A stretch of DNA of 64,000 nt, taken from Marsupella aquatica. Its lineage: Eukaryota > Plantae > Marchantiophyta. The stretch is taken from positions 8,453,539-8,517,538 of the forward strand of contig OZ316896.1 of NCBI GenBank assembly GCA_973895155.1. The letters are read 5' to 3'. A model generated the notes under the pieces. It was not told where the DNA came from and did no database searches. It saw only the letters and a program-made list of their open reading frames with translations. Shown here piece after piece: positions 25,626 to 64,000 of the stretch (position 1 is its first letter; each line of letters opens with the position of its first letter). A program made the translations under genes and the position numbers.

Positions 25626-27381
25626 TACATGCCTGAATCCCCTCCTGTGCCAGGCTGATGGCAATTTTTTGGACATTTCTCTGGCCCTAAAGGTCCCAAC
25701 CTCAACTTACTACCCTGAATGCCCATTCTGTGAATGACAATCGAGACCATGACAAAAATCAGCATGCATCATCATCTTCACATAAATTACATCCCATCTT
25801 TTTCCATCTACATACATTTGGTGGAGTCGTAGGGTTACAGTCTAGAGACTTCACTATAGAAGCAAAGACCCCAATTGTAGCTTCTGTTTGCTAATTAGTA
25901 ATAAGATTCACTAGCCCAATTACATGTCCTTGAACATAAATACATATGAAGAAAAGCAATAATGCACAAAAAGTCATTCTATGCTATTTCCTTGTTTTTT
26001 GCCAACGCTCATGTCAGTTTTGTCTTTATTGAGAGTCAATGTGCTATCTTTGCCCCCATCCTTGTGTTTTGTCCACCCTCAATTTGAATTTTGTCTTTAT
26101 TGAGGACTCTTTATCAGTTTTGTCTCTATTGTGAGTTAAGGTCTAGACTCGAGAGTCTTCACTGTAGACCATGAACTTTAAAGTAGCTTTCCTTAGCCAA
26201 TTATTACCGTACTTTCATCTGACTTTGCGCAAAAAAAAACAACTAGCCCAACAAATTAATCTGTAACATATCTTACTATATAATGGCAAACAAAAGATAC
26301 TTTTAAAGGCTACCTTATAGAGTGAAACCACTAGACCATAACAAACAAGGACAAAATGTACAGTGACTTTTAATAAATAAATCTAAGAGTTGCACAAAAC
26401 AATAGGTATGCAAAGCTAACGGAGGATAGATTTTGGTTTTCAATTCTATTTACTTTCAGGGAACTGGTAGTTAGGCTATATATGGTATTGTATTGTAAGT
26501 TTGATTAGTAAGATACGGTAGTGTACTGTATCTATGTTAACGTTATAGTACACTATACGTACCGGTCCTAAACATACCGGTATGACGGAAGTGTATACGC
26601 CGAACTGTACGGCGTTTTGAAATTGTGAGGGGTTCGAGACTTTCAGGAAACGTGTGATGATCGATGCTGTCTGTGATGAGGAGAGCTCGAGGAGTCGAGA
26701 CAATGTCGAGAGTGTCGGATTTCTTCTGCGATGGAAGACTGACCATTGACGTTTAGTAGAGATCAGGAATGCTGTTTATCGATACCAGGATGCTGCGATT
26801 TGCACAATGCAGCGAGAAGTGCCGATTGCAGGAGGAGTCATGGAGAGAAGACGACGCTCGCTCCTGCACGGGGCAGGCAGCAGGTCGATGATGAGCAGGA
26901 GAAGTCGAGGAAGGCCGACGAGTGAGGATCAGGTCCCGTCTCGAAGGTAGGATGGGCAGAGCATTTCGAAGCAGAGGTTGGACCCCGGACAATGCTTGAG
27001 GTCGTCAATTAGAGAGCTTAGCTGTCGCGTTTCCGGGACTGCTTGAGAGGGAACTGCGTACAGGCGGTCTGCGCGCACATCAGGTGGAAAAGGATGTTTC
27101 TCTTATGACTTAGCTATTTTGATGTTGTCAAACCGGAGCTAGCCTTACTGTTCAGCTCATGTTTGGCGTTTGTTCGAATTCCTTCTCTCAGAATATCGGT
27201 CTCGAGCTCGGTAGCTTTCATCGTCCCGACACGTATTTGAATGACGTTCTAGCTGTTCGGCTCTCACTAAAATCGTATTTTGATTGTCCGTTTGATGCAG
27301 TGAAGTCCCGAGATAAGAACATCGCGTCCTGGTTCGGACCGTCCGTGAGGTTTTCCGTCATTCCCTTTCACAGTGTCACCC

Positions 27382-30300
27382 ATGGGTCTGTGGTCGGAGG
27401 AGTCCTGCGTTCGTCGGTCCTGCGCTGGACCAGGCAGCTTGACTGCGCGCTACATCTACGGCGCCATCTTTCTGCTTACAACGATCATCGCATGGATGAT
27501 GCGCGACTACAGCTATCATGCTCTCAATGGTCTTTCTGGTAAGTATTCGATAACTCACGCTCAATTGAAAGATCAGTGTGCAGAGGCCAAGTTCTTTCAA
27601 GCACACCTGGTGGCCTGTCAACTTGGAAGTTGAATGATACTTGCAAACAAAGTCATGGAGTCATCTGGCAATTCTCTCTGGTGATTACGGTCCAATCTGC
27701 GCACAGCTGCTGAAGGCGGATTGTGCCATGTCTCTGATATAGCTCAATTTTTGGTCTTATACTCTTTAGCACAATTGTTCCAGCCTTGTACACTGTGTCT
27801 ACGGAAGACAAGGAACTAGGATCGGTTTTATGGTCAGCTATGGAGTATTTGTCACATCTCTTCCCCTCTCGAGTTCATATATGCATCAAGCAGATCCCAG
27901 CTCCTTGTGTACTAGAGTACGCTGTTGCAGTGAAGGTTGGAGACTCTGTCCTTCAGATCAATAACTTCGTTGGATCATCAGAAGGTTGTACTTGACGGGG
28001 CTAGTATAGGACCTTGGACTTCGAATTTTCCTCGAAATCTACCTTGTGGATGACACACCTGCTTGAATGGAGTTGACCATTTGTGCCAAAACATCTATCG
28101 GGCGCAATGTACTACGTGAGGAGCAATTTTTGCTTCTTCAGCTGTCGAGAATCTTAGAAGATGTTGATTTGAATTCGAAGACAACAAGGCAAGGTTTGTA
28201 TATAGGATAGATATGGGATCTGAGGCGGAGCATCAATTAAGAATGAGGAATACAAGTGATCTCTGGTACTTTCTCCATTCTATTGACCTGCATCCAATCC
28301 AATTCCATGCCGCACCTGCGGCGTGAACTAATAGAACCTCTTCTCATATCAAGCATGCGACCGTAAAACACGTATTATAGGAAGCAGTAAGGCGCGAATC
28401 TCGCGACACCAGGCCTTGACTAATTCACATGAACAGGGTAGGTGATGAAAATATCTTCAGATATTTCCCAAGAGATCCTCGGTGACCCAGTGAATAATGC
28501 AACAATGTCCTCCAGATTGTCTAAGCCAGGGTGGTGTAACTGACCTTCCAGCGTACAGGTGACGGAAGAATGGTCATGATTTAGACCTGACTGACAATAT
28601 CGTGATAAGAACCAAACGATGCAATAAATTTCGTTTTGAGCGATTCAAAGATAGGTTGTCCATCTTTAATCTTTAACAGTCATTCCCTAGTACGCTGAAA
28701 AGTAGCAGTGATTTCTATTCAGCTTTCACTTGCAAACCCTGTGAGACTGAGTAAATTTCAGTAAGGTCTTCCAGCAATTCAGTACATCATTTAATTCTAT
28801 GCGCCATTTGTCTGCAGCTCTAAATGGATGTCACGGAGAGCATAACTGTCTTGGCACGGAGGGCGTGCTGCGTATCAGTTTGGGTTGCTTCACATTCTTT
28901 TTCACCATGTATCTTACAACTGTCGGTACCAAAGACACAGATGACCCTAGGGATTACTGGCATTCTGGCTGGTGGCCACTCAAAAGTCTTTTCTGGGTGT
29001 TTACAACTGTCCTTCCTTTCTTCATTCCTTCTGCCTTCATTCAGGTCTACGGTGAGATGGCAAGGTTTGGTGCCGGGTGAGATTCTAAGTCCGGAGACGT
29101 TTTTTAACTGTTCGAAAGTCACATCGGCTCGTTTCCTTATCTGTCTTGAGTTCTGTATGGGGCTGTCGTATAATATCTTATATGTCACAACGAACAAAAG
29201 AATTTGTAGGGAAACAGAAACATCACTATAATACTCGTCACCTGTACTACATGAAGTTTCTACCTCGTAACTTGACTGACAATCTCTCATGTGGAATGGC
29301 TCAACAGGATTTTTTTGGTTATCCAGCTCCTTAGCGTGATCAATTTCGTATTTTGGTGGAACGAAAACTGGCTCTCGGAAAAAAACGTCCGCCGCTTGTA
29401 AATGCAAAATATCACCACTTTCCCCTTAGTTCTTGATGATTGTATCTTCCAGTTTTGAAATGTCCTTGGCTCCATACGTTGCAAGTGGATTGCGAAATCC
29501 AAAGCGTATACAAATAGCACTGACGTTCTCTGCTGTTCCTGATGGAAATCTGACAGGCAGTGGGCTACCGTGGCGGTGTCTGTCTTCGCCTATGTCTCCT
29601 CCCTTAGCGGTCTTATCATTATGTATGTTTGGTTCGCACCGGCAGCATCTTGTAGTCTCAACATATTCTTTATAACGTGGACTCTTGTACTCATCCTCGT
29701 CTTCACAATCATTTCCCTGCATTCAAAGGTATGTCAAGTCACAAAGATCTAGACGTTGAGCTGGGCACAGAGCAATCTCGTTTGTGTACGAGTGCCCAAG
29801 CAGTTGGTGTTACATGCTGTTACGTTGCACGTGAGCTCCAAGTCAAAATCTGAAAATGAGCAAATGTTTAAGTCTTACAGGTTAATGCCGGCCTTCTTAC
29901 TTCGGGACTTGTAGCGATGTACGTCGTCTTTCTCTGTTGGTCCGCCATAATGAGGTTGGAGACCTTCCACCCACCCAGAAGTTTTTGGCAGTCCTTACCT
30001 CAACTTGGAATGGTCATGTCTGACTTCTGTATAATGGATTTGTGCTTGTGATGATCAAATGATTGCATATTTTGTGGCCTAATTCATTCGAATACTTTAT
30101 TCTCGTTAAGGGAAAGTCGGTGCTTCTTGTGCTGTGCGAGAGTACTTACGTATCTCTGTTTCTAAATATGTTATCATTCATCTAGTGGACTTCCTTGTAG
30201 ACATTGTTCTTCTGAGATCGTGGTGATGAACAGTGGCAGAGGTGTGGTGACATTTTCTTGGTTGTACTCGTCGCAGTGAGCCGGCGGCGGTGACTTGCAA

Positions 30301-31666
30301 CACGAGGCCCAGGCAAACTGGGCACACAGATTGGATTACTGTCGTGGTATCTATCTTAAGTCCAGGCTTTCACCACTCTAAACGCTGTCAACTGACTTTC
30401 CTGCCTGTACACCTTGTGTTTGAAGATTAGTCCAGTGCTGTGTTCTCTCCGATTCAGAGGTTAACGAATTTTTTATTTTTGCGCAGAGTTTTTTGTTAGC
30501 TTTCTCTGCCATTATCTTGTCAACATTCTCGACGGGAATCGATTCCCAGGCATTCTCTGTAAGTTCACTACGCAGTTGTGAATTTTGAGGTCTCTTACAA
30601 TCTGACTGTCATCTTGGTGCTATACCATCCTTCTGGTCGTCCATTTGGAAAGGAAGAACATCTGTACGATTTGGAGGCCACTAAACACGGAAAGTACAGA
30701 ATTCTATCATTGGACAATGCCATGAACGTCAATGTGTGTGTTTCCTTTTCATGAGCCGTGCTTCAGATGTTTGCATAATTAAAATTGTGAAGATTTGATC
30801 TCAACTACTTAGACCAGCTAACTTGTAGTTTGTTATGGTCAGTTATTTGTCCTCGGACAGGAATGTTAGTATTCTTTGGACTCTTAACACGCTGGTTGTA
30901 TCCCTTACAGATGACAAGTAAGGATGGCCGACCGGAGGGTCACGTGCCTTACGGATACGGATTCTTTCACTTTGTATTTGCAATGGGCGCCATGTACTTC
31001 GCGATGCTCTTTGTGGGGTGGAATCTGCACCAAACAGCCCACAAGTACGGGGATTTCTCCTAATTGCTGTGCTGGCTGAAAATTGTATTCAAACAACTCG
31101 ATGTTTCTTGAAGTCTTGCCCTGCCGTAGAGCCATAATTGCTTCCTCGCCTTTAACTCGTTCCGGAGCTCCCTGTTGTGATCAGGTGGAGTATTGACGTC
31201 GGCTGGGCCAGTGTCTGGGTGAAAATTGTCAATGAATGGCTCGCAGCTTTGGTGTACAGTAAGTCTTACTCCACGCATCTCACTCACCATATTATCGTTT
31301 CCCTTCAAAGATCTTTAAAACATTTATGGATGCCAAAAGCCTTTGTAGATTGATGGAAATCTACTCAACGCATCCCACTCACCTTATTGATGTTTACCTG
31401 AGAAGATGTATGAAATGTTTGTGGATGCCAGAGACTTTGTAATTCGATGGAAAGCTACTCCACACATCCCACTCACCTTAGCATAGCTTTACCTGGGAAT
31501 CTCTTTGAAATATTTGTGGGTGCCAGAAGACTTTATTATTCGATGGAAAGCTTTAGGCAAATACCAAGCGAGAAGGCACTAGTCCAGCATTCGACTAAAA
31601 CATGCCTGCTCGTGCGCAGTTTGGTGTATGGTGGGACCATTTATCCTGCGAGATCGCAATTTTTGA
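27382..31666 (+). CDS. SERINC: Serine incorporator (Serinc/TMS) family membrane protein, ~382 aa, 10 coding exons
   Basis: Exons 27382-27538, 28818-29076, 29308-29397, 29557-29728, 29881-29954, 30277-30346, 30487-30558, 30911-31044, 31185-31258, 31620-31666 (1149 nt, GT-AG). Motifs ARYIYG, GVLRISLG, WHSGWW, NAGLLTSG, YGYGFFHFVFAMGAMYFAML, GWASVWVKIVNEW. Confidence 0.95.
31320..31551. repeat. ~95-bp tandem repeat (~2.4 copies) in the last Serinc intron
   Basis: ttt(a/g)tgg(a/g)tgcca...gatggaaa(t/g)ctactc.ac.catcccactcacctta...tttacctg repeated. Confidence 0.85.
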
Positions 31667-36985: not shown

Positions 36986-38515
36986 ATGGGACTATTTGGC
37001 ATAATCCTGTCGGTAGTGATCTCACCCTGGTCGATGACAATTGACTGGATTTGGAAGCCCTGGAGTTTGATTGTGGCTTGTCGGAAGCAAGGGATCACCG
37101 GTTTCTCTTTCGTACCTTTCGTGGGACAGCTTCTTCAGATTTCCAAGGCATTGACAAGGCCTCAGTCTGGGAATGACTGGGAAGCATTAAGCAGTGTACA
37201 GCAGTGTGTTGAGAAGCATGGAAAAGTGTTCTACTTCACAACTGGCAGAACTGTGAGAATTTGTATCTCAGACCCTGACCTGTTGAAGGATTTACTGGCA
37301 GACAACTCGGACAGCTATGCCAAACCGTCTTTCATTCATGTTCTGGGCATTCTGGGAGACGGGCTGTTTTCCTCGAGCGGGGAAGTGTGGGCTCCGCAAC
37401 GGAAACTACTGGGTCTTTCATTCACAAACAAAGAGATTAAGCCAGAGGTCGGCCATATCGTCAGCATTGCTCGGTCTGCCCTGGAGCAATGGTTTCAAGA
37501 GATTAACTCAAATTCTGGCGAACTGAACATCTATCACAAGTTACTTCAACTCACACTGAATGTCATACAAAAATTTGCGTTTGGACAAAATGCACCTGAA
37601 GAAGGATCACAACCACTCATAACAGGCGCCTATGACCGATATCTTCACAATTCTCGGCAGCTCGTGTTTGGTCCACCAGCTGCCATTCCTGGTTACCGGT
37701 TTCTTCCAACAAGTACTAATCGAGAAATCAATAGGGATCAAAAATGGTTATCTGGTGTCGCTGATGCATTGATCGAGGCTCGATCCAGAGGCTATTCTTC
37801 ATCACCAGCTGAGCTGAGGGATCACAAGGATGTCCTGGATTTGTTGATGGGTGCAGTACAGGACGACTCTAAAGCAGTCAGCAGTCAGCAATTGAGGGAC
37901 AACTGTCTCACTATTCTTCTGGCGGGCCATCACACTACTGCAAGTTTGGTGACATGGACGATGTACATGCTAGCTCTTGAGCCGCTGTGGCAAGATAAGG
38001 CACGGGCAGAAGTGGAAGAATTACGTGCAAGGGGAGAAGTGGGATGGGATACCTTGTCTGGCATGAAGATCACAACAATGATTTTGCAAGAAACATTGAG
38101 GTTTTTTCCTCCAGTTCCTCTGATAGGTAGATCCTGTTTGAAAGAAAACTCTGTAGGTCGCTACACAATTCCAGCGGGAGTGGAGATTTTAATTCCCACG
38201 GCAGTTCTCCATCGTGACAAGGAGTTATGGGGCGAGGATGCAGACCAATTCTTGCCAACGAGATTTGCAAAGGGAATTGGCACAGCGTGCAAGCATGCCA
38301 TGGGATATCTGCCCTTTGGGTCTGGCCCTCGCACATGTATTGGGCAGGCATTAGCTCTAGCTGAAGCCAAAGCTGTGCTGGCAGTGATGCTTTCAGCCTT
38401 TTCTTGGAAGCTTAGTCCCGGGTATCGGCACTCGCCAGATGTCTCTCTTTCTCTGCAACCCAAGTTTGGAATTCCCCTTATGATAGAGAAATTTAACGAT
38501 TCCGGAGCGAAGTGA
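36986..38515 (+). CDS. Cytochrome P450, CYP72 clan, 509 aa, no introns in the CDS
   Basis: Clan-72-like N-terminus WIWKPWSL...RKQGITG, C-helix WAPQRK, I-helix AGHHTT, WQDKARAEV, ETLR (ExxR), LWGEDA..FLPTRF, heme motif YLPFGSGPRTCIG. Confidence 0.96.
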   Translation: MGLFGIILSVVISPWSMTIDWIWKPWSLIVACRKQGITGFSFVPFVGQLLQISKALTRPQSGNDWEALSSVQQCVEKHGKVFYFTTGRTVRICISDPDLLKDLLADNSDSYAKPSFIHVLGILGDGLFSSSGEVWAPQRKLLGLSFTNKEIKPEVGHIVSIARSALEQWFQEINSNSGELNIYHKLLQLTLNVIQKFAFGQNAPEEGSQPLITGAYDRYLHNSRQLVFGPPAAIPGYRFLPTSTNREINRDQKWLSGVADALIEARSRGYSSSPAELRDHKDVLDLLMGAVQDDSKAVSSQQLRDNCLTILLAGHHTTASLVTWTMYMLALEPLWQDKARAEVEELRARGEVGWDTLSGMKITTMILQETLRFFPPVPLIGRSCLKENSVGRYTIPAGVEILIPTAVLHRDKELWGEDADQFLPTRFAKGIGTACKHAMGYLPFGSGPRTCIGQALALAEAKAVLAVMLSAFSWKLSPGYRHSPDVSLSLQPKFGIPLMIEKFNDSGAK

Positions 38516-39069
38516 GGGCGCTCGCAGGTAAACTTCGTGTCCGTCTGCACGGAGAAATGACTGGTGATGGGGGAGAGAAGTCGAGTGCGGCAGCGTTTGG
38601 CGATCGAGGAGCAACCCTACCTGTGCAATTATACTCCTCACATGTAACTTCAACGATCCCACCTCCACCATCTTTCCCTTCTAAACCACTGCTATGCTCC
38701 CTGGGGGAATAAGCCGCTTAAGTCGCCACATTTTGTCACTTCTGCTACTTCACCTAAACCTCCACTGTCTACCAGTCTTCACAGGATCGCACCTATAGAT
38801 AAAATCACTCACCGCAATTGCTCGGATCTGGCCAAGTATGATTAGGGCGGCTTGGCATCGAGGCCGCAGCCCACAAACTCCCCTGACTGCCAGACGATTG
38901 GCTCCCTCCTTGGACTTTAGTGGCTCTCAATTCATCAAGTGCACCAGGTTTGTACCGTACTCATGATTTCATCTTGATATTGAGTTGTTGAATTGCAAAG
39001 CTCAGATGTTGTTCTGCCGACTAGTTTTGCTCTGGGTTTAGTCATTTGTGAGCTAATCCTACAATATCA

Positions 39070-39727
39070 TCAGGTCTTACAAACTGGGAGAATTGTAGAT
39101 ACAATAAGATGGCTCATGCGAAGTGTATGGCATTTTTCATCTCGTATCCTGTCAGGAATGCGGCAGTAGTTCAGTTCAGCACGAGATGGAGTGAAGTGTG
39201 CAGAGAAATGACGCCCTTTGTCAACGACCCTTGCAAACGACACATCTTCATCACTATCATAAAGGTACTTCAGTCTTACTATACACGTAGTAGTACATAT
39301 TCTAGTAGTAGCTGTAACTTGTCTTACATTCCTCACCCTAACGTTCAGCCTCTCTAGGGTTGTACCAGTTGAGTATCTGGTAGCACTTCCATCTGTTATG
39401 AAGTGGGATTTGCAGTGGTAATCTTGACTATTCTCGGGGAAGAACTCACGTGAATGTTCAACTCTGCTCTTGTCCAGGTGGACGTCGATGACCACTGTCA
39501 TCTATGGAAACCAAAAATTGTGAATTTTGTGCTCACTGTCAAAATATAGAAGAATGGTTCAAACGTGACGAGCTCCTAGATGTAAACAGTGTAGCTGGAC
39601 GATCCACAAATATTTTTAGGGGGCTATAAATGCGTCCCGTTCCTAGCGATTGCCTGCGGCGCCTAATTGGCGACGACTCACTAAAATCATGTAGGATTGA
39701 ATAGCTGATTCGTACATGCTGTGACAA
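39070..39727 (-). pseudogene. Possible gene remnant of unknown family
   Basis: 143-aa ORF 39070-39501 preceded by an acceptor-like ttccatag and containing a donor-like gtaaga. Adjacent 62-codon ORF upstream. No family recognised. Confidence 0.25.
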
Positions 39728-40570
39728 TACTGTAGAGGATGTAGTGTAGACTAGATCCCTGATCCAATAAGATGAGCAAATTTAAGAATCTTAAATGCAA
39801 AATGCGCGGTGTAGCTGAGGCACTCTTGTTCTCCTTAATTGCTCGACAAAGAGCTGCTCGTAGAAATTTGATTATTCTTGTATACTAACGACGGTACTGT
39901 GTTTCTGTGGTAAGAAGAATTGGTCTTCTGCAAAGATGATGAGTCTTTTGCAGTGTCTACCCAGGTTATGAGTACAATTACACCGTATCAAGAGGGTCTT
40001 CTGGCTATTTATCGAGATTGAGTTGTTGCTGTTGATAGCTGTTGACAGGATTGGGGCAACATTGTTTAAGATTTCTATGTCTTCTTCTTAGTATCATTTG
40101 CCGGGCCACGCTTGACGTAAGATTTCTGAGAAAAGTATCTAACGTAAATGTGTTGTGTGAAGGGTTTTGGAGTGGGCTGAAACGTTGTCTCCGTACTACC
40201 TGTACTTAAATTGACTTCTCAAACTCGGTTTCCAATGTACTTGACCTCAAGCTTCCCTAGGTGGATGCTTTCAAACCGAATGTTCAAATTGACCAAACGT
40301 TCCAGCTGCTTGAAAGAGCATGGGGCATGAACGAGCATTGAGAAACATCCATCGTTGGGCCGTGTAGAAGTTGAACACTTTGAGAGGCAGAATTGAATGA
40401 AGCGTAGGATGAAAGAACAAATCTCAGAATGAATGAGCGAATTAGCAGAATCACTTTGACCGTTGGATTGAAAAGAATCACTTTGACCATTGGATTGAAA
40501 AGCAAAATCATAAGAACGAATCAATGGAATAGCAGAATTCCCCAATAAGAATTTCGGAGATAGAATCATT

Positions 40571-41316
40571 GTGAACCCGATTGAAGAGCATCTGGTCTAC
40601 ACTACATCCGCACTCTATTTTAGCTCCATGTGCACGAATTTCTCCACAGGAATGGGTGAAATGGCAGTGGAAGATGCTGTGAGTGATGAAGTGCTTGCAA
40701 TCAACCAACAGGAAATGATTGTTGGGCGACAAAACAATAGGGAGAAGGACAGGCGGAAAGAGATCAAGGGGCAAAAAAATGAAAGTGACGATGATGGAAA
40801 TCTAGAGCCGTTACCGACAGAGGTACTGTAGTGTGATCGAGAAGTGGAAGAGATGACTTTTGGTGCATCGCTGAAGTCAGACATTCCAATGCTTGGTCAG
40901 CACATCGGAGACTTTCGCTGAAAGCAGTGGTGATGATGATGGAAACAGGAAAACCCGTTGCAGACAGAGGCAGTGTTATCGATGAGAAGCGGAAGAGACG
41001 ACTTTTGGTGCATAGCTGAAGTCAAACATTTTAATGCTTGATCAGCACATGGAGGCTCAGAAGCAGATGAAGTCCAAGCGCTCGAGATAGTGCCGGAAAT
41101 GACGATCCAGCGTCGGAAGCCAACACTCAACCGCTGCGGTTGTGGAACATAATTTAAGAATCATCCCCTCTCCTCGGGAGTTGCAATAGTTTCCACAAAA
41201 GGGCATCAATCAAAGCTCCTCTATCCAGGCTTTGTTGACGCAGGATGATGTAGGAAAGGCAACGATATAACGACGTAGACTACATTTCTCAAGATCAAGA
41301 CATCGAGTCGAACGAC
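40571..41316 (+). pseudogene. Decayed coding-like 5' region upstream of the 518-aa ORF, with ~147-bp tandem duplication
   Basis: Acidic ORF 40571-40831 continues past TAG as protein-like sequence. Blocks ~40790-40905 and ~40935-41050 are duplicates with frameshifts. QDQDIESND just before ATG 41317 is in frame and matches the ORF's internal QDQDGESND repeat. Confidence 0.5.
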
Positions 41317-42873
41317 ATGGACAAAGAATCTATTCATGACATTAGCAGTACAAGCAGCAGTGAAGGATCTAATGGCACAAAACACGAGCAGACAAGTGAT
41401 TCTAGCGGAACGCAAGATCAAGATGGAGAATCGAATGACACAGAGGATGAGCAGACAAGTCATTCTAGTGGAACACAAGATCAACATGGAGAATCTTACT
41501 TGTGTAGGGACTGTGGGTCTAGGAATATAGCGCGTAGCTGTTCAGGGATGAGCAAGGGCAGAGCAGAAAGAATCCCCATTCAGATGGGTAGTCCCCTTTC
41601 TCCTCCTGGACAATCACCCTCGCCAGAGAATCTTGAGAAAGCTGAGACATCTGAAAGGTTAGAGAAACAGGATGAGGTTCCTTTACTTGACTGGCACGCA
41701 AAAGTGGAGATCACTGAGACGGAACCAATGCTGCCTCCACAACCCATCTCTAAAGGGTTGAAATTGAGGGTGATAGGACCAATGCCTGAAGCGGTCAACA
41801 GTGTCAAAGACGTGCTTGTAACTGGGATATTGGGAGGGTTTCGAGTCAGATACATGCGTTTTGAAAAGATATTGCTAACCGGGAATATAGCTGGCAGGAG
41901 TGGCCGCGTAGTGTGTGACTGCAACCTGTGTAAAGGAAAGACGACGGTAAGTCTTACTGATTTTGAGAGACACGCTGGAAGTACGGCTAAAAAAACTTCA
42001 AAATTCATTTACATTGACAACGGTAAGAGTCTATATGAAGTCATGGAAGCAGCTCGGACAGCTGCTGAGAATGGGAAGCCAGTGCGAAAGGCTCTACAGG
42101 TGGTGATGGGGCCAGACCCTGACAAAAGTCCTGAGAGCAGTTCTCAATCAGTGCCTCGCATAGAAGGAGATGAGGAGGAGATCACAGGTGATAGGAAGCA
42201 AAGGCCTTTGGTACCTAAAGACTATACTGCAAAGAAGACGAGAGCTATGTCAACTCCCAACCTTGCTGGTGCCTCGCCTCCTCCGCAAATTTCGCCCAGT
42301 ACAACTGCAGCTGGAGAGTTGTCAAGCACCTCGTCAAATACTTCAGGTTCAAACATCCTGTCTACGACAAACAACGAGGAGGGTGGGGATAGCGACAACA
42401 TCCTGTCTAAGACAAACAACGATGTGGATGGGGATAGCGACAACGAGCAGGAGAAAGATGATGTGGTTGAGAAGATTATCTTCGATGACCCCAAACACAT
42501 CTCGAATGCAGAAAGAGAAACATTTCTTTCACTACCAGTGGATAGCGAGCAGCTGTTGGCTTATCCAATAGATTGGGATATCTATGATAACAGTAATCTG
42601 CACCTACCAATGGAGCGTCTGATTTCAGAGGAGGTTACGGAGAGAGTTGGGAGAGTGGCCTTCACTGAAGAGGATCTCATTATGCTTAATTCTCTAAGAG
42701 CAAGAATCTTAAGGAAATTCAGCAAGCATGTAACTGCAGACAAGCTGCTGAACATGTTAAAGTTTTACTTCGGCCATGATGCTTATAGCTTATTCTACGT
42801 ATTGTGGCGGAATTTGATAAATGAGATTCGACTAATTGAAATCCTCGTCTCAGACTCCGAAGCACAACCTTAA
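41317..42873 (+). CDS. 518-aa intron-free ORF: Tify-domain-binding domain (TDBD) plus C-terminal RBM25-like PWI domain
   Basis: aa ~163-246: VKDVLVTGILGGFRVRY...VVCDCNLCKG..VSLTDFERHAGS...FIYIDNGKSLYEVM (TDBD of IDM1-like PHD/GNAT proteins). aa ~404-510: LPVDSEQLLAYPIDWDIYDNSNLHLPMERLISEEVTERVG...HVTADKLLNML...LWRNLINEIRLIE (RBM25 PWI pattern). In-frame 60- and 45-bp internal duplications. Confidence 0.8.
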   Translation: MDKESIHDISSTSSSEGSNGTKHEQTSDSSGTQDQDGESNDTEDEQTSHSSGTQDQHGESYLCRDCGSRNIARSCSGMSKGRAERIPIQMGSPLSPPGQSPSPENLEKAETSERLEKQDEVPLLDWHAKVEITETEPMLPPQPISKGLKLRVIGPMPEAVNSVKDVLVTGILGGFRVRYMRFEKILLTGNIAGRSGRVVCDCNLCKGKTTVSLTDFERHAGSTAKKTSKFIYIDNGKSLYEVMEAARTAAENGKPVRKALQVVMGPDPDKSPESSSQSVPRIEGDEEEITGDRKQRPLVPKDYTAKKTRAMSTPNLAGASPPPQISPSTTAAGELSSTSSNTSGSNILSTTNNEEGGDSDNILSKTNNDVDGDSDNEQEKDDVVEKIIFDDPKHISNAERETFLSLPVDSEQLLAYPIDWDIYDNSNLHLPMERLISEEVTERVGRVAFTEEDLIMLNSLRARILRKFSKHVTADKLLNMLKFYFGHDAYSLFYVLWRNLINEIRLIEILVSDSEAQP

Positions 42874-45139
42874 CCTCGTGAAGAATAATACGATATTCTC
42901 TTCCGGGATTTCTAGAGAAATGTCAGAGCAGTAAAGAAAATCAGTCTACACAACAACAACAAAAATAATTTATTACTCGGTTTGACATAACACTGCTAAG
43001 CCCACGCTGATCTTTTCGGCAATAGTTTGGGCAGAGTAACAAAGTACTCCTTGAATCAGCCTTCGCCCAACTTGAAGTCTTACTGACTTTACTGATGCTG
43101 CTAATGAGAAAATTATGCGCGGGCAGTTTTGTTTGACTAATGATCTCATTAAAGCTAAGAGATCATCATGCGCTCTATGGTCAAATCAACTTGCTAAGGT
43201 TGAAACTTGCTACTGTGAGGTCAACATACCAGCCGACCGTCCGCTGTCTTCAGCCAATGTGACGTTTGGTTAGTCCACAGGACTGGCTACTGGCAAAACT
43301 TACTGTCTTTGAGCATGATACAAGGTGCAGTTTGTGAATGTAATAACAGTCCCACTGTCGCGGTAAATGCCCGGCCAAAGTGATGGCTTTGGGCACTGTA
43401 CTCCGAGAAAGTATTGTCCAGTGGCTGCGTTTTGCTCAAACAAGCTCTCCCGGCCTGCCCAAACTTGCCTCTTCTCACCAGAACTGCCCGCACGGCTCAC
43501 CAAATACCATGGACAGTAGGGATGCACGGATCTTGATCTCAGCAGCTGGTCCTGCTCCATCAGAATCAGAAAGTCGAGGCATTTTATGTCACTTGCATTT
43601 TACGGTCATGTTGCTGGACTCACACCGTGTGGATAGGGTCACGCCAGACTGTATGTCATCTGCCTCTTTACTGAGTCGCGTTAATTGGGAATGCTCTAAT
43701 GGTTGCAACTGGCCGGTCTACTATCATCTACAGTAGCTTGAATAACTTATTCCCTCTATGATGGCTCGTCTTTTGGCCCTATCTTGGGCTTCCTATTGTG
43801 CTCACAGGATTGGATTTCACGTGGCCACGACATAAAACATTGCAGGTGTGACAAAGTCAGCACTTCCTCTGACTTTGTTGAGGATTTGATCTCGGATTTG
43901 AAACACTGCTTACTTATACTCTGGAATTAACGATTTGAACTTCCATACATGTTGACGAGGGTCTGATAATGTTTGCTCCCTGCATTGCAGTTGTCTATTG
44001 TTAGTTAGATGAAGACAGTACTCTGCCTGAACCTCAAACATGGACTGCAATGCAATTATGTATTGGTAGTCAGAGAAGCGGTACTCTGGCTGGACACCCC
44101 CCGCCAACGACAACCCCCGCCAACGACAACCCCCGCCAACGACTACAGTCTGTTTTGAGCTAGCTCCTCGCTCTAAACAAATCCTTTATGAACCATTCAT
44201 CGCAAACGATGCTCGTGAACTTTCATTTGTGCATGTGTGAAATCCCCGTAATCCAGTGGGTGTGTCTAAGTCGGTCAAGCCTTTCATGCATCTCAGTCTT
44301 GTGTTCCTCAAGTTTGTTCGCAGGAGCTCGTTCGACAACTTTAGACACCAATTCTCCTTATCGGTCTGAAACCCTCGTTCTCGGATTCTAGGTGTAGAAA
44401 ACTACAATGTTCGGAATGAAGGCGATGAGAGGACATCTAGGCCCATCTCGCAACCAACCAACCAAGGTAATCACAGCTGAAACATACAGCCATACCTTGT
44501 TGCAATAATGTCTATTCTACCATATTTAACTAGAAGATCATCAGTCACGTTCAATCGCAAACTAGAAGCTCATCGGTCACGTTCAATCGCAAAAGACGCC
44601 CAGAGATTACATAATTGATAGTATCTCTTCCCCTTGAAAATCTTGACCGAAGCCTTTTGTCATGAAAGGACATGGGAGATTGAGCGGCCTTTTGCCCCGG
44701 AACACGACATGATCGTCTGTGACTAGACAAACTTTTTGATTGAGAAGACATTTGCTACATTTACAAACAATTGAGTCGGGTTTTCCTTTGTTTGATATAC
44801 AATTGTCGGATTTGCAACTTGAGCGGGTCTCCACAGTAGTTGGGCCCCAATGACTCCATTCCGATGCAGACTTTGTCTAGATTAGGCAGATCGCTGATTG
44901 GTCTCGTGCTCCACTAGTTGGGCAAATTTAGACAAAGTCAACAGAAGCCAAAAATAATCCATTTCCCACAAAGACTTTGGATTTTGCTTTGGAGTCCATA
45001 ATTATGCATCTTTACCGGCAGTGGAGTACATTTCATTCAATCCACTCCCGTATAACCTTTCAACACGCACAGGTGACTTTCCAAATACAGTGGACTTTCC
45101 AAATAACAGAATCTTCCTATACATCCAGCTTCCAGGCTT

Positions 45140-45400
45140 GGGCATTCACTATTCTTTGGAGGAGTGAGACTGTTAGGGTTAGGGCATTAGGCATTCACTA
45201 TTCTTAGGAGGGGTGAGACGGTTAGCGTTAGGGCAGCTAGTCTATTCCATTGTTAGACCCCCCATAATTCTTAGGAAGGGTGAGATAGTTAGCGCTAGGG
45301 CAGCTAGTCAGATTCCATTGTTAGACCCCCCATAATTCTTAGGAAGGGTGAGATAGTTAGCGCTAGGGCAGCTAGTCAAATTCCATTGTTAGAACCCCCC
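45140..45400. repeat. ~70-bp tandem repeats
   Basis: attcttagga.gggtgaga..gttagcg.tagggcagctagtc.(g)attccattgttaga.cccc repeated about three times after a partial copy. Confidence 0.9.
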
Positions 45401-45415
45401 TAAACACTTCACCTA

Positions 45416-45783
45416 CACTCTTTATAGTATTTAGTGTCACTAACAATTAGTGTCACACACACTAATTAGGTGTAGCCCTTGATTTTCAGCCAAGTGACAC
45501 TATTAACCGTCACCCCTAATTTTGAAAATAAATTAATATATTGAAAAATATTGATAATTAGAGGTAATAATGTTATTGGTGGTAACCCTAAACTGGACCC
45601 ACTCCAAAGTTTTGACTATTGTTCTTTCTATTTGTTTTAACTTAAGTGTGTGTGACACTATTTGACATGTGACCATAATTAGTGACATATCATATTAGTG
45701 TCACACACCCTAATTACCGTCACTTATCTCAAATATAACCTCACAGTAATTAGAGTGTGTGAGACTAAATATTGTAAAGAGTG
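45416..45783. mobile_element. 368-bp non-autonomous DNA transposon, CACTC termini, TA TSD
   Basis: TIR cactcttta(t/c)a(g/a)tatttagt(g/c)tcac at both ends. TA at 45414-45415 and 45784-45785. Internal aattagtgtcac / gtgacacta repeats. Confidence 0.88.
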
Positions 45784-46862
45784 TAGCTCTACCAGGCTTT
45801 GCAGTTTGCCAATAGATAGGATTGCTGATAGGTTCCTCCGATCTGTGGGCCTTTTTCTTTATGGGTTTTTTGCTGGCCTCTCCTTTTTGAGACTTTTGCC
45901 TGGGGGCCGGGGGGGGGCTATCTCCCCTTTTGGGCTCCTCTTGTTCTTGTGCAGTGTGATATATACTTTTCTTGCGCTAGTTATAAGACTCTTAGAAATA
46001 TATTCCTAGTCAATCTAATGTCTCTAGTTTTTATGAATAGAAAATTAAGAATATAGTCTGTGTTATGCATTCTTTCTAAAGATTAATTCATAGCTCATTG
46101 TTTGTCACTTCCCAAAAACTTTTGAGGAACTAACTTGGGGTGATTAGAAACCCCTTAGAAGGATACTTTCAATGAGCTTAATGTTGCCAAAATTCTTTGA
46201 AAATTGAAATACCTACAAATGTCCAAAGATGACTCGTTGGGAAGTTTTCTTGTCACATTTCACTCATTGCTGTAATAATTATGTACTACGAGCCCTGTGC
46301 TTGCGTTACACGGCTAGCATGGGAGAAGTGTGCAGGGCAAGGCCGAGGCACAGACAGTGAGGTTGAGGATGCACAGGGAGGTCGCACAGGTGCTTACATT
46401 GGGTAAGCAAACTATAGCTCACAATGGAATGGATTGGATCTCTGCATCATGTTGTTTGATGTGAGCAGTAGGGTAATATTTAAAGTTGCTATATACTGTT
46501 TGATATGAGCAGAAAAGTTGGGTGTTTTCTGCAATCCATTCCTGTTTCAATATTATGTCCCAACATTTTGGCGATCTCAAAGCATCTTCCATGCGAAGCA
46601 GCGGAGCCACAGTAGCAAAGGCGACGATCAATGCACACTGTAATTTATTGTAATTAACAACCCTCAAAGGGCCGGATTGCTCTACTCTCGTAGTCTCGTG
46701 CCTTCCCCATGCTGAAACATAATATTTACTGCTCAAAAGCTCCACCTACCTAATATTGTACATGGCACAGATGGCGGCTTGAGATTGGTGTACCCGCTGC
46801 AACTTAATTAAAAAAGTTTCCCACCCATTCTTTCACTTTTTCAGGCCTCACCAAGTCTCCAC

Positions 46863-55746: not shown

Positions 55747-58700
55747 ATGTCGCGACGGCTGGTGGAGAATGCTACCAGGGAAGCGCAAGCGTTGTGGAGT
55801 AATCTAGTCGAAGAGAAGCCCCTACTTCCATTTCTTATACCGCTGGTTCTGATCGCCTGGTTTCTTGAACGATGGATCATCCCCCTATCCAACTGGGTTC
55901 CTGTCTGCTTCATTGTTTGGGCTACTCTTGAGGTTTGCATTTCCTCAGCATGACTTTGCATAACTAATTTATAGCTCATTCAAAGTCGCATAGGAGTCTC
56001 AGTTTTGGTTGTGGTTACAGCTGGGAGACTGGACGATGCTGTAGTCGAAAGTTGGTACTTTAAGAAACTGATATATTTTTTCGTATCTGAAACTCTGCCC
56101 ATGCTTTCTCCAATTTCGTTGAAGCTAAGGGTCATCTCGCAATCATTGTCAGAGATTCGGTGTCGCATTTATGTCATGACAATAATAATATTCTTTGTTA
56201 GTTGGCATTGACAGTGACTTGCGTGTCGATTTTCGAAGAAATAGCTGTACCCGTGCAATCGATTATATGAGTGGTGTTTTTCTGACTGTTATTTTGCGCA
56301 GTATGGAAAATTCCAACGCAGTCAAGTAATAGAGGACCTTAATAATCGATGGAAACGCCACATCCTATCAAGCCAGGTGCGTTGTTTGGGATGACTACAC
56401 AGCGATAGATTTTTGAAAGCACGTAGTACGTCTAACAAGATTATTCTGGCACAACAGTCCTGGCTCTGAAGGTTGAACGTGCTCCGCTTGTTTGGAAGGT
56501 AATTTCTGGCCTTGCTCTTATCACATTTCGTTTACTTCGTGCAGCCAGATACCGCTCGAGAACCTACAGAGTGGCTCAACAAGCTTCTCATGAATGTGTG
56601 GCCCAACTTTGTCGAACCAAAGTTGGTACGAAAACTGCTCCGAAGTGTGCAAAGGAGGATTAAAGATAAGAGGCCCAGGCCCATTGTGAGTATTTTGACT
56701 ACTATACCCAGCTCCCCGTTGTCACTGAAGTGAATGAAGACTATCTCTTTTTGAGGTCAGGGACTGTATGCCCAAATCTCTTGTATATGCTCGGAACTTA
56801 GAACATGTGGTATTTTTAAAATTACAAAAGTTGGTTTCTTCTAGTTTACAGCCATGACACTATACTGGCAAAATTTGTTGAAATTCATGCTTGCTTTCTG
56901 CAGCAAAGTATTGAAATTCAAGAACTCTTTCTTGGTACTGCACCTCCGATTTTTGGTCTGGATCGAACTTATTGGTCATCAGAAAGCGGTCAGGTGGGTA
57001 TCTTTTGCTTCAGAAGCCTGAGGCAATGATTTGGACTTTATTGCTAACCATTCTATGTGGAGAGTGATCACTCATGACTTGAAATCAATAATGACTCTTA
57101 ATCAATGGCTTACCCGTTTTTGACATTAAGTGAGTAGCGAGGAAGATGTGGTTGAGCAATTACTCAACAATTGCTAGTTTTTTTTGTTTTTTTTTGTATA
57201 TGTGACAAGCCTTGCACCAGCATGATCTTCCCCTCACTAGAATCCCTTAATAGTCATCGAATTATAGCACCTCAAAGTGCGAATCAATCCTTATCTGAAT
57301 GAGATCAAGATCTAGCCGTCAACCCTGAATTGTGGCAATTAGGCAGATATCAGTCTTTCCTATTTTCCCACTCATTCAGGCTAAGGAGAGTAAATGTGTT
57401 TCAGGGTTTCTCGCTCATTCATAAGGTACATCTGGATTTGTGCAGCCAGTACTACATATGGGTTTCCAGTGGGATACAAACGAGATGAGTGTGCTATTGG
57501 CAGCAAAGCTTGGTGGTCCCTTGCGGGGAAAGATGGCTCGAATTGTTATTAACAGCGTTCATGTGAAGGGTGATGTATGCACGTTACTCTTGCCTGGCTG
57601 CATTTGAAGTGTATCAGTTGAGAAAAAGCAGCAATTTAGGCGTTTGATTGATTGAATTGTGTTGTCCATATGTGAGTCTAGAAGGGTGAAGTCTTTGTGA
57701 CAACCTGGATGACACCCCAAAATATGGTCTTGGCTCGTGCTTGAGCTGTTGTGCGTTACCTGGCCCTGCACGTTCTAATTTTTGAAAATGTGCACTTTGC
57801 AGCTCCGACTTCGACCTATTTTGGATGGACAAGCGGTGCTCTATTCATTTTACGATGTTCCTGATGTCAGGGTTGGAGTTGCATTTGGGAGTGGCAGCAG
57901 CCAAACTGCTCCACAGACTGAGCTTCCAGTTGTGTCATCATGGCTGGTATGCACCTCATTCTGTTACTTTATTACAAGTCTGAACTTAAGTGAGAATAAA
58001 ATTTCTTTCTTGTTTAGCCAGGCACACATGAATCCTTTCATTCTTTGGCCAATTTCAAAATTTGTTTTCGCAAAGGATTAAAACGTACTGTGTAAGAACA
58101 AAGAATTGCGATGATTGGAATTAAGGAGGAGCGTTTCTGGCGGCTTTACAAGTCTTATCTGAAATTGTCATTCTCTTGCGCAGGAGAAGCTTCTAAAGGA
58201 CACTTTTGTCAGGACAATGGTTGAACCCCGCCGAAGATGCTTCTCATTACCCCCAGTAGATTTAAAAAAGCATGCAGTTGGTGGGATTGTTAGTGTTACG
58301 GTGGTATCTGGCAGCAATCTTTCCAAACCAGTTACCACAAATATTGTAAGGGCGCACTCTGTTGACAGTAAGAAGTCGTCCTCCAATGGCCAGCATGTCA
58401 CTCATACTGATAAGGTCCAGCGGACTTTTGTCGAGATGACAGTGGAGGACTTAACCCGAAAAACCCGTTTGTGTCCAAAGGGGGGATCATGTCCTGGTTG
58501 GAATGATAGTTTTGATATGGTGCTACATGATGATACTGGAACCCTTCATTTGAATGTGTACGAGCAAGGAAACAGCAACATGAAGTTTGACTTCCTTGGT
58601 AGCTGTGAAATAAAGGTTAGCTGGAAACTTCCTGAGTCCTCATTCTGAATGGAAGCACTTTCATCCTTTCTTGCCCTGCTGCACTGTTTCAAGATGCCTG

Positions 58701-63290: not shown

Positions 63291-64000
63291 ATTGAAGCAT
63301 TGTACCATACAATCTTCACACTAGTGGATGTACGAATGTACTATATTCTTATCTAGTCGTTGTCATGTCTGATCCCACATATTATTTAAAACGCTGTACT
63401 TATTTGGATCTACCATGAATACAGTGGTAATGACGATCGTCCACCTTTTTTTCTGAGCTGCAAACAAAAGACAAGTGAGAAGCCAGGGTCGACACTTTTG
63501 CAGTCTCTTACGTGTGTTCTACATTGCTTCAGTCGGAATCTCTTTTCTTGTCCAGATTTCTCCCAAACAGCCTTGAGCGACATGAAAATCAAAGAATTTT
63601 GTAATCCTTATTTATATGCATTACTACAATATCGGCCAAAAATTTTGATATACAGAGCTCGGATGCAAAAAACTTCCGAAGTCGATCCAACTCCTTTGAT
63701 CCTACATTTGGATCAGCGCACAAACAGCTTCAATTCCATGTCACAGCATACTGTACCCAAACTGAAAATCAAATTGATGGTGAATTATTTCGCCGTAAGT
63801 TGTGGGTAGGAGGACTAAATCAAAATGAAGGTGAATTATTTCGCCATGAGGTGAGGGTAGGAGGACTGTACCAAGACTGGAGGCAGCATCTGGAAGGCTC
63901 CAAGACCTAACCACATGGCTACACGAGAGTTTTGTCCGGATTATTTTATTTTAAAAAATGGACTGGAAAAAAAACTTTCAACTGAATTTATCCACACAAG

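What the first reader, a model, noticed from the sequence alone, without database searches (positions are those of the whole stretch)
41317..42873. Apparent chimeric gene fusing a Tify-domain-binding domain to an RBM25-type PWI domain
Seen: an uninterrupted 1557-bp ORF with two ordered modules separated by low-complexity linkers. Knowledge: module 1 (~41803-42055, CDCNLC...FERHAG...IYIDNGKSL, preceded by VKDVLVTGIL) follows the TDBD of plant IDM1-like PHD/GNAT proteins; the same domain family mediates NINJA binding to TIFY/JAZ proteins. Module 2 (~42526-42845) follows the plant RBM25 C-terminal PWI pattern as I recall it (IP..KEELF.Y.I.W..YD...LH..M...IS....E.LG; HV.A..ML; .WR.LI.EI), but the PWI tripeptide itself reads RLI. 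PHD, GNAT and RRM domains of the parent families are absent. Inference: a lineage-specific fusion that could link TIFY/chromatin complexes with nucleic-acid binding or splicing. I know of no described protein with this architecture.
Basis: partly seen in the sequence, partly recalled or inferred. Interest (0 to 1): 0.85.

Follow-up and report, generated by a model that had tools for sequence, protein, structure and literature searches.

The report
Liverwort chimeric TDBD–RBM25 retrogene
This is a real, intron-less hybrid gene stitched from a chromatin-regulator gene and the splicing-factor gene RBM25, with a related hybrid in the leafy liverwort Calypogeia fissa; it likely acts through its conserved chromatin-type domain, while the splicing-factor half has lost most residues known to grip RNA, and expression is untested.

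Summary
The ORF and both modules are real. Residues 1-272 come from an IDM1-like TDBD-PHD-GNAT gene (TDBD E=1e-11). Residues ~277-513 come from the RBM25 tail (RPLVP motif plus a PWI-fold bundle; model Z 13.8 to 3V53; no Pfam PWI hit). A broken RBM25 piece lies upstream, so the locus reads RBM25|IDM1-like|RBM25. DNA contigs bridge the junction. Intron-bearing parent loci sit elsewhere in the same runs, so both halves are processed. The fusion is not unique to this genome: Calypogeia fissa CAM6124574.1 shares the junction (39% identity, no PWI core), and a second, apparently frameshifted copy is in the same runs. TDBD keeps its conserved residues beyond neutral expectation (P=0.002), and its model resembles RAMA/SAND folds. 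The PWI half shows little such constraint and has lost the PW pair and three of four RNA-contact residues. Listed allele differences look near-neutral (4 of 16 silent), and no RNA run was available. Verdict: a fast-evolving, probably leafy-liverwort chimeric retrogene with an architecture I did not find described. The proposed TIFY-to-splicing bridge is not supported.

The parts
40727..41004 (+). Decayed 5' RBM25 relic (Marchantia RBM25 aa 537-579), partly duplicated
   Evidence: 16/23 identity, 37.7 bits against a shuffled maximum of 22.3 in 30 controls; DEKRKRRL at 40981-41004 is 8/8 identical to RBM25 aa 572-579
40785..41057 (+). 145-nt tandem duplication spanning the first junction (RBM25 to IDM1-like gene)
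   Evidence: Self-BLAST and repeat D3; LKSDIPML at 40871 is 8/8 identical to P0010 aa 572-579, second copy at 41016
41007..41316 (+). Decayed IDM1-like segment upstream of the present start (at least 4 stops; at least 2 frame changes from 40930 on)
   Evidence: tblastn of P0010 aa 586-686, 44.7 bits; three-frame translation
41317..42873 (+). Chimeric ORF, 518 aa; the start Met aligns with internal Met662 of the IDM1-like parent and Met19 of C. fissa P0009
41317..41802 (+). N-terminal region from the IDM1-like parent: acidic and Ser-rich, in-frame 63-nt duplication (41361-41486), CxxC motif (C63, C66)
   Evidence: BLASTP to P0010, 41% over 313 columns, E=6e-58; repeat D4
41803..42132 (+). First TDBD unit of the IDM1-like gene, with C200/C202/C205/H219 (predicted Zn site); RAMA/SAND-like fold; parent intron(s) absent
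   Evidence: Pfam; model pLDDT 84.6; VIA rows 1-4; parent contig anchors 396 nt apart against 150 here, with a GT donor at the matching site
42133..42165 (+). Second junction (IDM1-like to RBM25), in frame, inside an exon of each parent, shared with C. fissa P0009
42166..42483 (+). RBM25-derived acidic patch, RPLVP-x-DY motif and eroded RE/RD-rich linker with an in-frame 45-nt duplication
42484..42843 (+). Degenerate PWI-fold bundle with flanking helices; PWI reads RLI, KK reads EE; parent intron after YD-x absent
   Evidence: parent contig continues into a GT donor behind 42588+3

Best explanation
This is an intron-less chimeric gene joining the front TDBD of an IDM1-like PHD/GNAT gene to the tail of RBM25, and it likely makes a nuclear protein that works through its conserved TDBD (predicted RAMA/SAND-like, zinc-bound) as a stand-alone chromatin- or partner-binding module, with the PWI bundle likely reduced to a fast-evolving scaffold that no longer binds RNA as RBM25 does. 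Origin (inferred): in a leafy-liverwort ancestor a piece of the IDM1-like gene (aa ~568-958) replaced aa ~580-705 of a spare RBM25 copy. The front part decayed and an internal Met became the start. Most likely the first chimera kept introns and this copy is a retrocopy of its spliced transcript. Action (inferred): lacking PHD and GNAT domains, the protein would occupy sites or partners of its parent without reading or acetylating histones, so it would act as a competitor or modulator. Shown: composition, junctions, intron loss, a relative in C. fissa, past constraint on TDBD. Not shown: expression, location, any binding.
For: Both halves align collinearly with liverwort parents. The junction is bridged in DNA contigs. 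Parent loci with extra length and GT donors occur in the same runs. In the TDBD tree the two chimeras are sisters (96/77) and nest among liverwort parents (100/97). TDBD conserved columns are kept 29 of 34 against 20.3 under neutral codon simulation (P=0.002); in P0009, 26 of 34 against 14.8 (0 of 2000 runs). The frame stays open although the PWI part is only 44/122 identical to Marchantia RBM25 (2% of neutral runs stay stop-free, indels not counted), while the relic just upstream is broken. The listed allelic length changes in the ORF are in frame: 4+5 nt lost, 45 nt repeated. The four VIA rows with Z>=5 are RAMA (7.8, 6.8) and SAND (5.7, 5.5); the MPND RAMA domain binds DNA and histones (PMC9963953, passages). 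K777/K778/K825 are RNA-contact residues in RBM25 (PMC3553564, passages) and are lost here. Hints that introns were kept elsewhere: copy 2 has 470 nt between anchors that are 305 nt apart here; P0009 has a 4-residue insertion at the position where P0054's exon begins.
Against: Of the allelic substitutions I could read (16 picked from the 40 rows shown; 59 further rows hidden), only 4 are silent. This fits omega 0.5-2 and rejects 0.3 (P=0.016). In the fully listed stretch 41876-42032, within TDBD, 6 of 7 changes alter residues, though none hits an invariant Cys, His, Phe or Glu. The PWI half shows no excess retention at conserved columns (23 against 23.0) and only a marginal hydrophobic excess (37 of 48 against 31.3, P about 0.05). 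Copy 2 looks frameshifted and P0009 lacks the PWI core, so the architecture is unstable. RAMA/SAND Z-scores under 8 can reflect a common arrangement, and Foldseek gave no match at E<=0.001. Both models were built with parent sequences in the alignment (7 and 5 rows). Net charge of the PWI part equals that of plant RBM25 (14 K/R each), and R828 is kept. Sister grouping of two long branches can be an artefact.
Confidence: 0.5

Rival explanations
1. A once-functional chimeric retrogene that is now released from selection and decaying; the frame is simply not yet broken.
For: Near-neutral allele pattern (4 of 16 silent); sister copy apparently frameshifted; C. fissa relative annotated without the PWI core; long branches in both trees.
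Against: No stop or frameshift among the listed allelic changes in three other runs. Sharp border between the broken relic and 1557 open bases. Invariant TDBD residues are untouched in the alleles read. A 518-codon frame survives 8% neutral substitution in 2% of simulations.
Confidence: 0.27
2. One reading: an adaptor that binds TIFY/JAZ proteins through TDBD and RNA or the spliceosome through PWI, coupling jasmonate-type repression to splicing.
For: Pfam names the domain for TIFY binding; NINJA binds the TIFY8 ZIM domain (PMC3885651, passages); the PWI fold is predicted intact; R828 and the RPLVP motif are kept.
Against: The TDBD comes from the PHD/GNAT lineage. The two PHD passages of the TIFY8 pull-down paper name OBE2 and TTA2, not IDM1-like proteins. 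Three of four mapped contact residues and the PW pair are lost. The C. fissa relative keeps TDBD constraint but not the PWI core.
Confidence: 0.1
3. A gene under diversifying selection (decoy or genetic-conflict factor): conserved fold, rapidly changing surface, for example in reproduction or defence.
For: Core residues kept but the surface changes fast in both chimeras; 6 of 7 allele changes in the TDBD stretch are replacements; repeated gain and loss of copies.
Against: The counts do not exceed neutrality overall (P(<=4 silent of 16)=0.57); no expression data; no conflict partner is known.
Confidence: 0.13
4. Rival for the origin step only: the chimera arose in one reverse-transcription event by a double template switch (RBM25 mRNA to IDM1-like mRNA and back), so no copy ever had introns.
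For: A-B-A layout; the second junction lies inside exons; both halves are processed; double switches are described (PMC2104539, abstract; PMC5470649, passages).
Against: Copy 2 carries at least 165 extra nt across the stretch where the parent has 246 extra; P0009 has an insertion at a parent exon border. No LTRs were seen among the repeats listed for 38500-46500 (20 of 41 direct-repeat families shown).
Confidence: 0.35

Closest known systems
IDM1-like TDBD-PHD-GNAT proteins (C. fissa CAM6090025.1 = P0010; Riccia KAL3696574.1 = P0011)
   Same: aa 1-272 collinear with P0010 aa ~662-958, 41% overall and 68/114 in the TDBD unit; all Cys/His of the TDBD kept
   Different: Lacks the second TDBD, the PHD fingers and the IDM1_C/GNAT domain; introns absent; far longer branch (0.79 against about 0 changes per column)
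RBM25 (Marchantia KAG6556371.1 = P0015; human PWI 3V53)
   Same: RPLVP-x-DY motif, flanking helices and four-helix PWI fold, in the same order at the C-terminus
   Different: No RRM; RE/RD region eroded; PWI reads RLI; KK reads EE; K825 reads V; F822 reads L; 9-residue insertion; no Pfam PWI hit
Calypogeia fissa CAM6124574.1 (P0009, 'unnamed protein product')
   Same: Same start region, TDBD, junction (QS-x-P-x-x-EGDEEEI-x-GD) and RBM25 linker; 39% over 405 columns
   Different: Annotated product ends without the PWI core; may keep introns (not checkable here)
Chimeric retrogenes (jingwei, TRIM5-CypA, plant cases; PMC5470649 passages; tripartite case PMC2104539 abstract)
   Same: Processed coding pieces of two genes fused in frame
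   Different: A-B-A layout with a dead front third and an internal start; these two parents; expression untested
NINJA/AFP C-domain (TDBD namesake; role of the C-domain recalled, original paper not held)
   Same: Same Pfam family
   Different: Different parent lineage; TIFY binding untested
RAMA (CcrM 6PBD, MPND 7YDT) and SAND domains (1UFN, 1OQJ)
   Same: Top four structural rows for the TDBD model, Z 5.5-7.8, rmsd 3.1-5.0 A over 68-83 residues
   Different: 12-16% identity; DNA binding untested; Z in the ambiguous range

Membership tests
TDBD (PF16135) | Profile score above Pfam cut-off | tested here: met
   44.8 and 48.1 bits against 23.6
TDBD (PF16135) | Binds a TIFY/ZIM domain | not tested
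PWI domain (PF01480) | Profile score above Pfam cut-off | tested here: not met
   No hit, while RBM25 controls score 45-55 bits
PWI domain (PF01480) | Pro-Trp-Ile signature with the helix-4 Phe | tested here: not met
   R434-L435-I436 and L492 (signature from PMC3553564 passages)
PWI domain (PF01480) | Four-helix PWI fold | tested here: met
   pLDDT 83.4; VIA rows 1 and 3 are 3V53 (Z 13.8) and 1MP1 (Z 8.7); Foldseek rows 1-5 are 3V53, best E=3.9e-3. The alignment held 4 RBM25 rows, so this is partly circular.
PWI domain (PF01480) | Basic nucleic-acid contact residues (K777, K778, K825, R828; flanking KRK) | tested here: not met
   E438, E439, V495, R498: 1 of 4 kept; flanking patch has K393-H394 only. 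Binding itself not measured.
RBM25 | RRM + RE/RD region + PWI in one protein | tested here: not met
   No RRM; only the C-terminal ~235 aa are in the ORF
IDM1-like PHD/GNAT proteins | Two TDBDs, PHD fingers, IDM1_C/GNAT domain | tested here: not met
   One TDBD only against P0010's full set
Chimeric retrogene | Coding pieces from two genes joined in frame | tested here: met
Chimeric retrogene | Loss of parental introns | tested here: met
   At least one intron per half, read from contig anchors and loose ends, not from whole parent sequences
Chimeric retrogene | Poly(A) remnant, target-site duplication or LTRs | tested here: inconclusive
   A-rich tract at about 42930-42968 and an 11/12 direct match at 40596/42944 seen by eye; chance is plausible
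Chimeric retrogene | Transcribed and translated | not testable with these tools
   No RNA holder listed
RAMA/SAND fold group | Structural match standing clear of unrelated folds | tested here: inconclusive
   Rows 1-4 Z 7.8-5.5, next row 4.2; Pfam SAND_ULT1 hits relative P0017 at E=3.2e-5; Foldseek best E=0.67

The most novel reading that the evidence does not exclude
Leafy liverworts carry a lineage-born, expressed and selected nuclear protein family built from an RBM25|IDM1-like|RBM25 chimera. It would couple a RAMA/SAND-like DNA- or nucleosome-binding TDBD to a charge-reversed PWI bundle repurposed for protein binding, and it turns over by retroposition under diversifying selection. As a by-product, plant 'Tify-binding' TDBDs would be RAMA/SAND-type chromatin-binding folds.
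Probability: 0.22. Interest if true: 0.75.

Novelty: new variant of a known kind. Interest (0 to 1): 0.52.

Why it matters
It is a traceable case of new-gene birth in a little-studied plant lineage. Both parents, both junctions, a dead front third, a decayed sister copy and a relative in another species are all visible, so origin and selection can be tested directly. It also gives a natural single-TDBD protein without PHD or GNAT domains, and a structural lead (RAMA/SAND-like) for what TDBDs of IDM1-like proteins do. The process itself, chimeric retrogene formation, is well known, and function is unproven.

Tried and rejected
Assembly artefact: rejected, contigs bridge the junction. Architecture common in databases: not seen. 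Among the best 150 of 230 representative hits plus earlier proteins (159 in all), only P0001 and P0009 match both halves; 80 weaker hits were not listed and no InterPro query was possible. Word-index searches were insensitive: one search found 4 RBM25s and missed P0009, one search found 1 protein, none. Expression: no RNA holder listed, which is no evidence either way. Two metagenome scans found no locus. No whole genome is held, so parents and copy 2 are known only from contig anchors and 30-nt loose ends; assigning loose ends to contigs rests on matching positions. The Atlas gave only TDBD clusters, below 0.9, for P0009. Four look-ups of earlier findings returned nothing. Literature: 'TDBD' + 'PWI' 0 papers; (listings) showed no such fusion; the original NINJA paper is not held; no supplements were read. 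The sigma-70 scan does not apply to a plant. Depth differences between loci in contig runs were not interpreted. Exact look-ups of the window's GCS1 and P450 proteins found no record, so the species is not fixed; 'leafy liverwort' is inferred from the trees and top hits. A complex prediction was not sent: no TIFY partner was available. P0020 is a repetitive chance hit.

Full report
Observation. The frame 41317-42873 is open for 518 codons. Pfam finds TDBD at aa 197-245, E=1.2e-11. Pfam PWI is not hit. The C-terminal half does match human RBM25 3V53 (E=5.9e-4) and a profile of four plant RBM25 tails over aa 282-509 (E=5.5e-24). An AlphaFold model of aa 387-518 (pLDDT 83.4) superposes on 3V53 with Z 13.8 and rmsd 1.6 A; its alignment held four RBM25 rows, so the test is partly circular. 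The fusion exists in DNA: contigs of two runs span the junction without a difference, one of which may be the source sample.

Parents. The representative search (names) gave liverwort top hits. Calypogeia fissa P0010 has two TDBDs, PHD fingers and IDM1_C and aligns with aa 11-272 at 41%, E=6e-58. Marchantia RBM25 P0015 aligns with aa 285-515 at 32%, E=1e-31. The 'linkers' are therefore parent sequence too. The host is inferred to be a leafy liverwort: the TDBD nests among liverwort parents with 100/97 support, and loose ends of the host's own parent contigs translate almost exactly as P0010 and P0014. The species was not determined.

A three-part locus. Upstream of the ATG the IDM1-like homology continues with stops to about 41007. 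Before that lies RBM25 again: aa 537-559 at 40727-40795 (37.7 bits; 30 shuffles reach at most 22.3) and DEKRKRRL at 40981-41004, 8/8 identical to RBM25 aa 572-579. A 145-nt duplication spans this first junction. So IDM1-like aa ~568-958 replaced RBM25 aa ~580-705. The front third is dead (at least 4 stops and 2 frame changes), and the ORF starts at a Met internal to the IDM1-like parent.

Introns. Run X1 holds separate 10.6-kb and 8.4-kb contigs that match only the TDBD side or only the RBM25 side. In the first, anchors 150 nt apart here are 396 nt apart. Loose ends run into GT donors after ...DRHGK and after ...YDQ. RBM25 predictions P0014, P0096 and P0134 read into non-homologous sequence at the same YD-x position. 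The window copy runs through both sites, so both halves are processed. This rests on anchors and 30-nt ends, not on whole parent sequences.

Relatives. Of 159 stored proteins only P0001 and C. fissa P0009 (CAM6124574.1) match both halves. They share the start region, the junction and derived linker motifs (39% over 405 columns) and group as sisters in both trees (96/77 and 99/98, long branches). P0009 as annotated lacks the PWI core. A second chimeric copy, 82-86% alike in the laid pieces, occurs in runs X1 and X5. Its loose ends read out of frame at two places. It has 470 nt between anchors 305 nt apart here, which may be retained introns or an insertion. P0009 has a 4-residue insertion where the Logan prediction P0054 begins its exon. 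I therefore favour a DNA-level chimera later retroposed (about 55%) over a double template switch (about 35%).

Selection. TDBD columns conserved in 139 family members are kept 29 of 34 times against 39 of 80 for variable columns. Neutral codon simulation expects 20.3 (P=0.002); for P0009, 26 against 14.8. The PWI half shows no such excess (23 against 23.0), only a marginal hydrophobic one (P about 0.05), but its frame has stayed open to 36% identity, which 2% of neutral runs manage. Against current constraint: 4 of 16 allelic substitutions are silent (neutral expectation 27%; omega 0.3 rejected at P=0.016, 0.5-2 fit). These 16 were picked from the 40 rows shown; 59 rows were hidden, and rows assigned to parents, to copy 2 or to the flanks were dropped. 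The listed allelic indels in the ORF are in frame.

Mechanism. In human RBM25 the contact residues are K777, K778, K825, R828 and a flanking KRK (PMC3553564, abstract and passages). Here they read E, E, V, R, and PW reads RL. Overall charge is like plant RBM25, so loss of RNA binding is predicted, not shown. The TDBD model (pLDDT 84.6) has RAMA and SAND domains as its four best VIA rows (Z 7.8-5.5, next row 4.2). Foldseek's best row was also MPND but not significant (E=0.67). The MPND RAMA domain binds DNA without sequence preference and binds histones (PMC9963953, passages). I commit to this reading: a single-TDBD nuclear protein that occupies chromatin or partners of its IDM1-like parent without PHD or GNAT activity, with a degenerate PWI scaffold (0.5). 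Rivals are a decaying gene (0.27), a conflict or decoy gene (0.13) and a TIFY-splicing adaptor (0.1). That the NINJA C-domain binds TIFY is recalled; the original paper was not held, and PMC11069243 states it in a passage.

Comparison and novelty. It is not an RBM25, not an IDM1-like protein and not a canonical PWI protein: each fails defining features. It meets the TDBD profile and the chimeric, processed-gene criteria. Chimeric retrogenes, including multi-switch ones, are known (PMC5470649, passages; PMC2104539, abstract), and another TDBD fusion, SET+TDBD, is reported in potato. No paper in the held library has both 'TDBD' and 'PWI', and the only database relative found is an unnamed C. fissa product.

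Noticed in passing
window 15493-18039 +: Intron-less 848-aa glucosidase I (GH63, E=2e-203). Angiosperm orthologues have many introns (recalled), so it may be another retrogene.
   Followed up: no
window 36986-38515 +: Intron-less 509-aa cytochrome P450, 2.8 kb upstream of the chimera on the same strand.
   Followed up: no
window 27349-31060 +, 58163-61325 +, 63390-63806 +, 7523-7852 -: Exons of a Serinc gene, a multi-C2 gene, a weak UCH fragment and a weak C2H2 finger; ordinary intron-bearing plant genes.
   Followed up: no
window 39737-40609: MITE-like element with 20-nt terminal inverted repeats just upstream of the RBM25 relic; a 433-nt internal skip is seen in two runs. It could supply a promoter.
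   Followed up: no
window 45138-46000: 49/68-nt tandem units, then a very high-depth repeat with 28-nt inverted arms at 45413-45440 and 45759-45786.
   Followed up: no
P0074 (Papaver californicum KAI3972843.1): Protein made of several degenerate RBM25-type PWI repeats; RBM25 tails have been duplicated and eroded in other plants too.
   Followed up: no
model m52098ec6a62f; P0017: The TDBD fold resembles RAMA and SAND domains, and Pfam SAND_ULT1 hits relative P0017 (E=3.2e-5); this bears on all IDM1-like proteins.
   Followed up: partly
window 41503-41541: CxxC...C motif upstream of TDBD, kept in P0001, P0009, P0010 and P0011 and, for CxxC, in copy 2; possibly a small zinc site with no Pfam name.
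   Followed up: no
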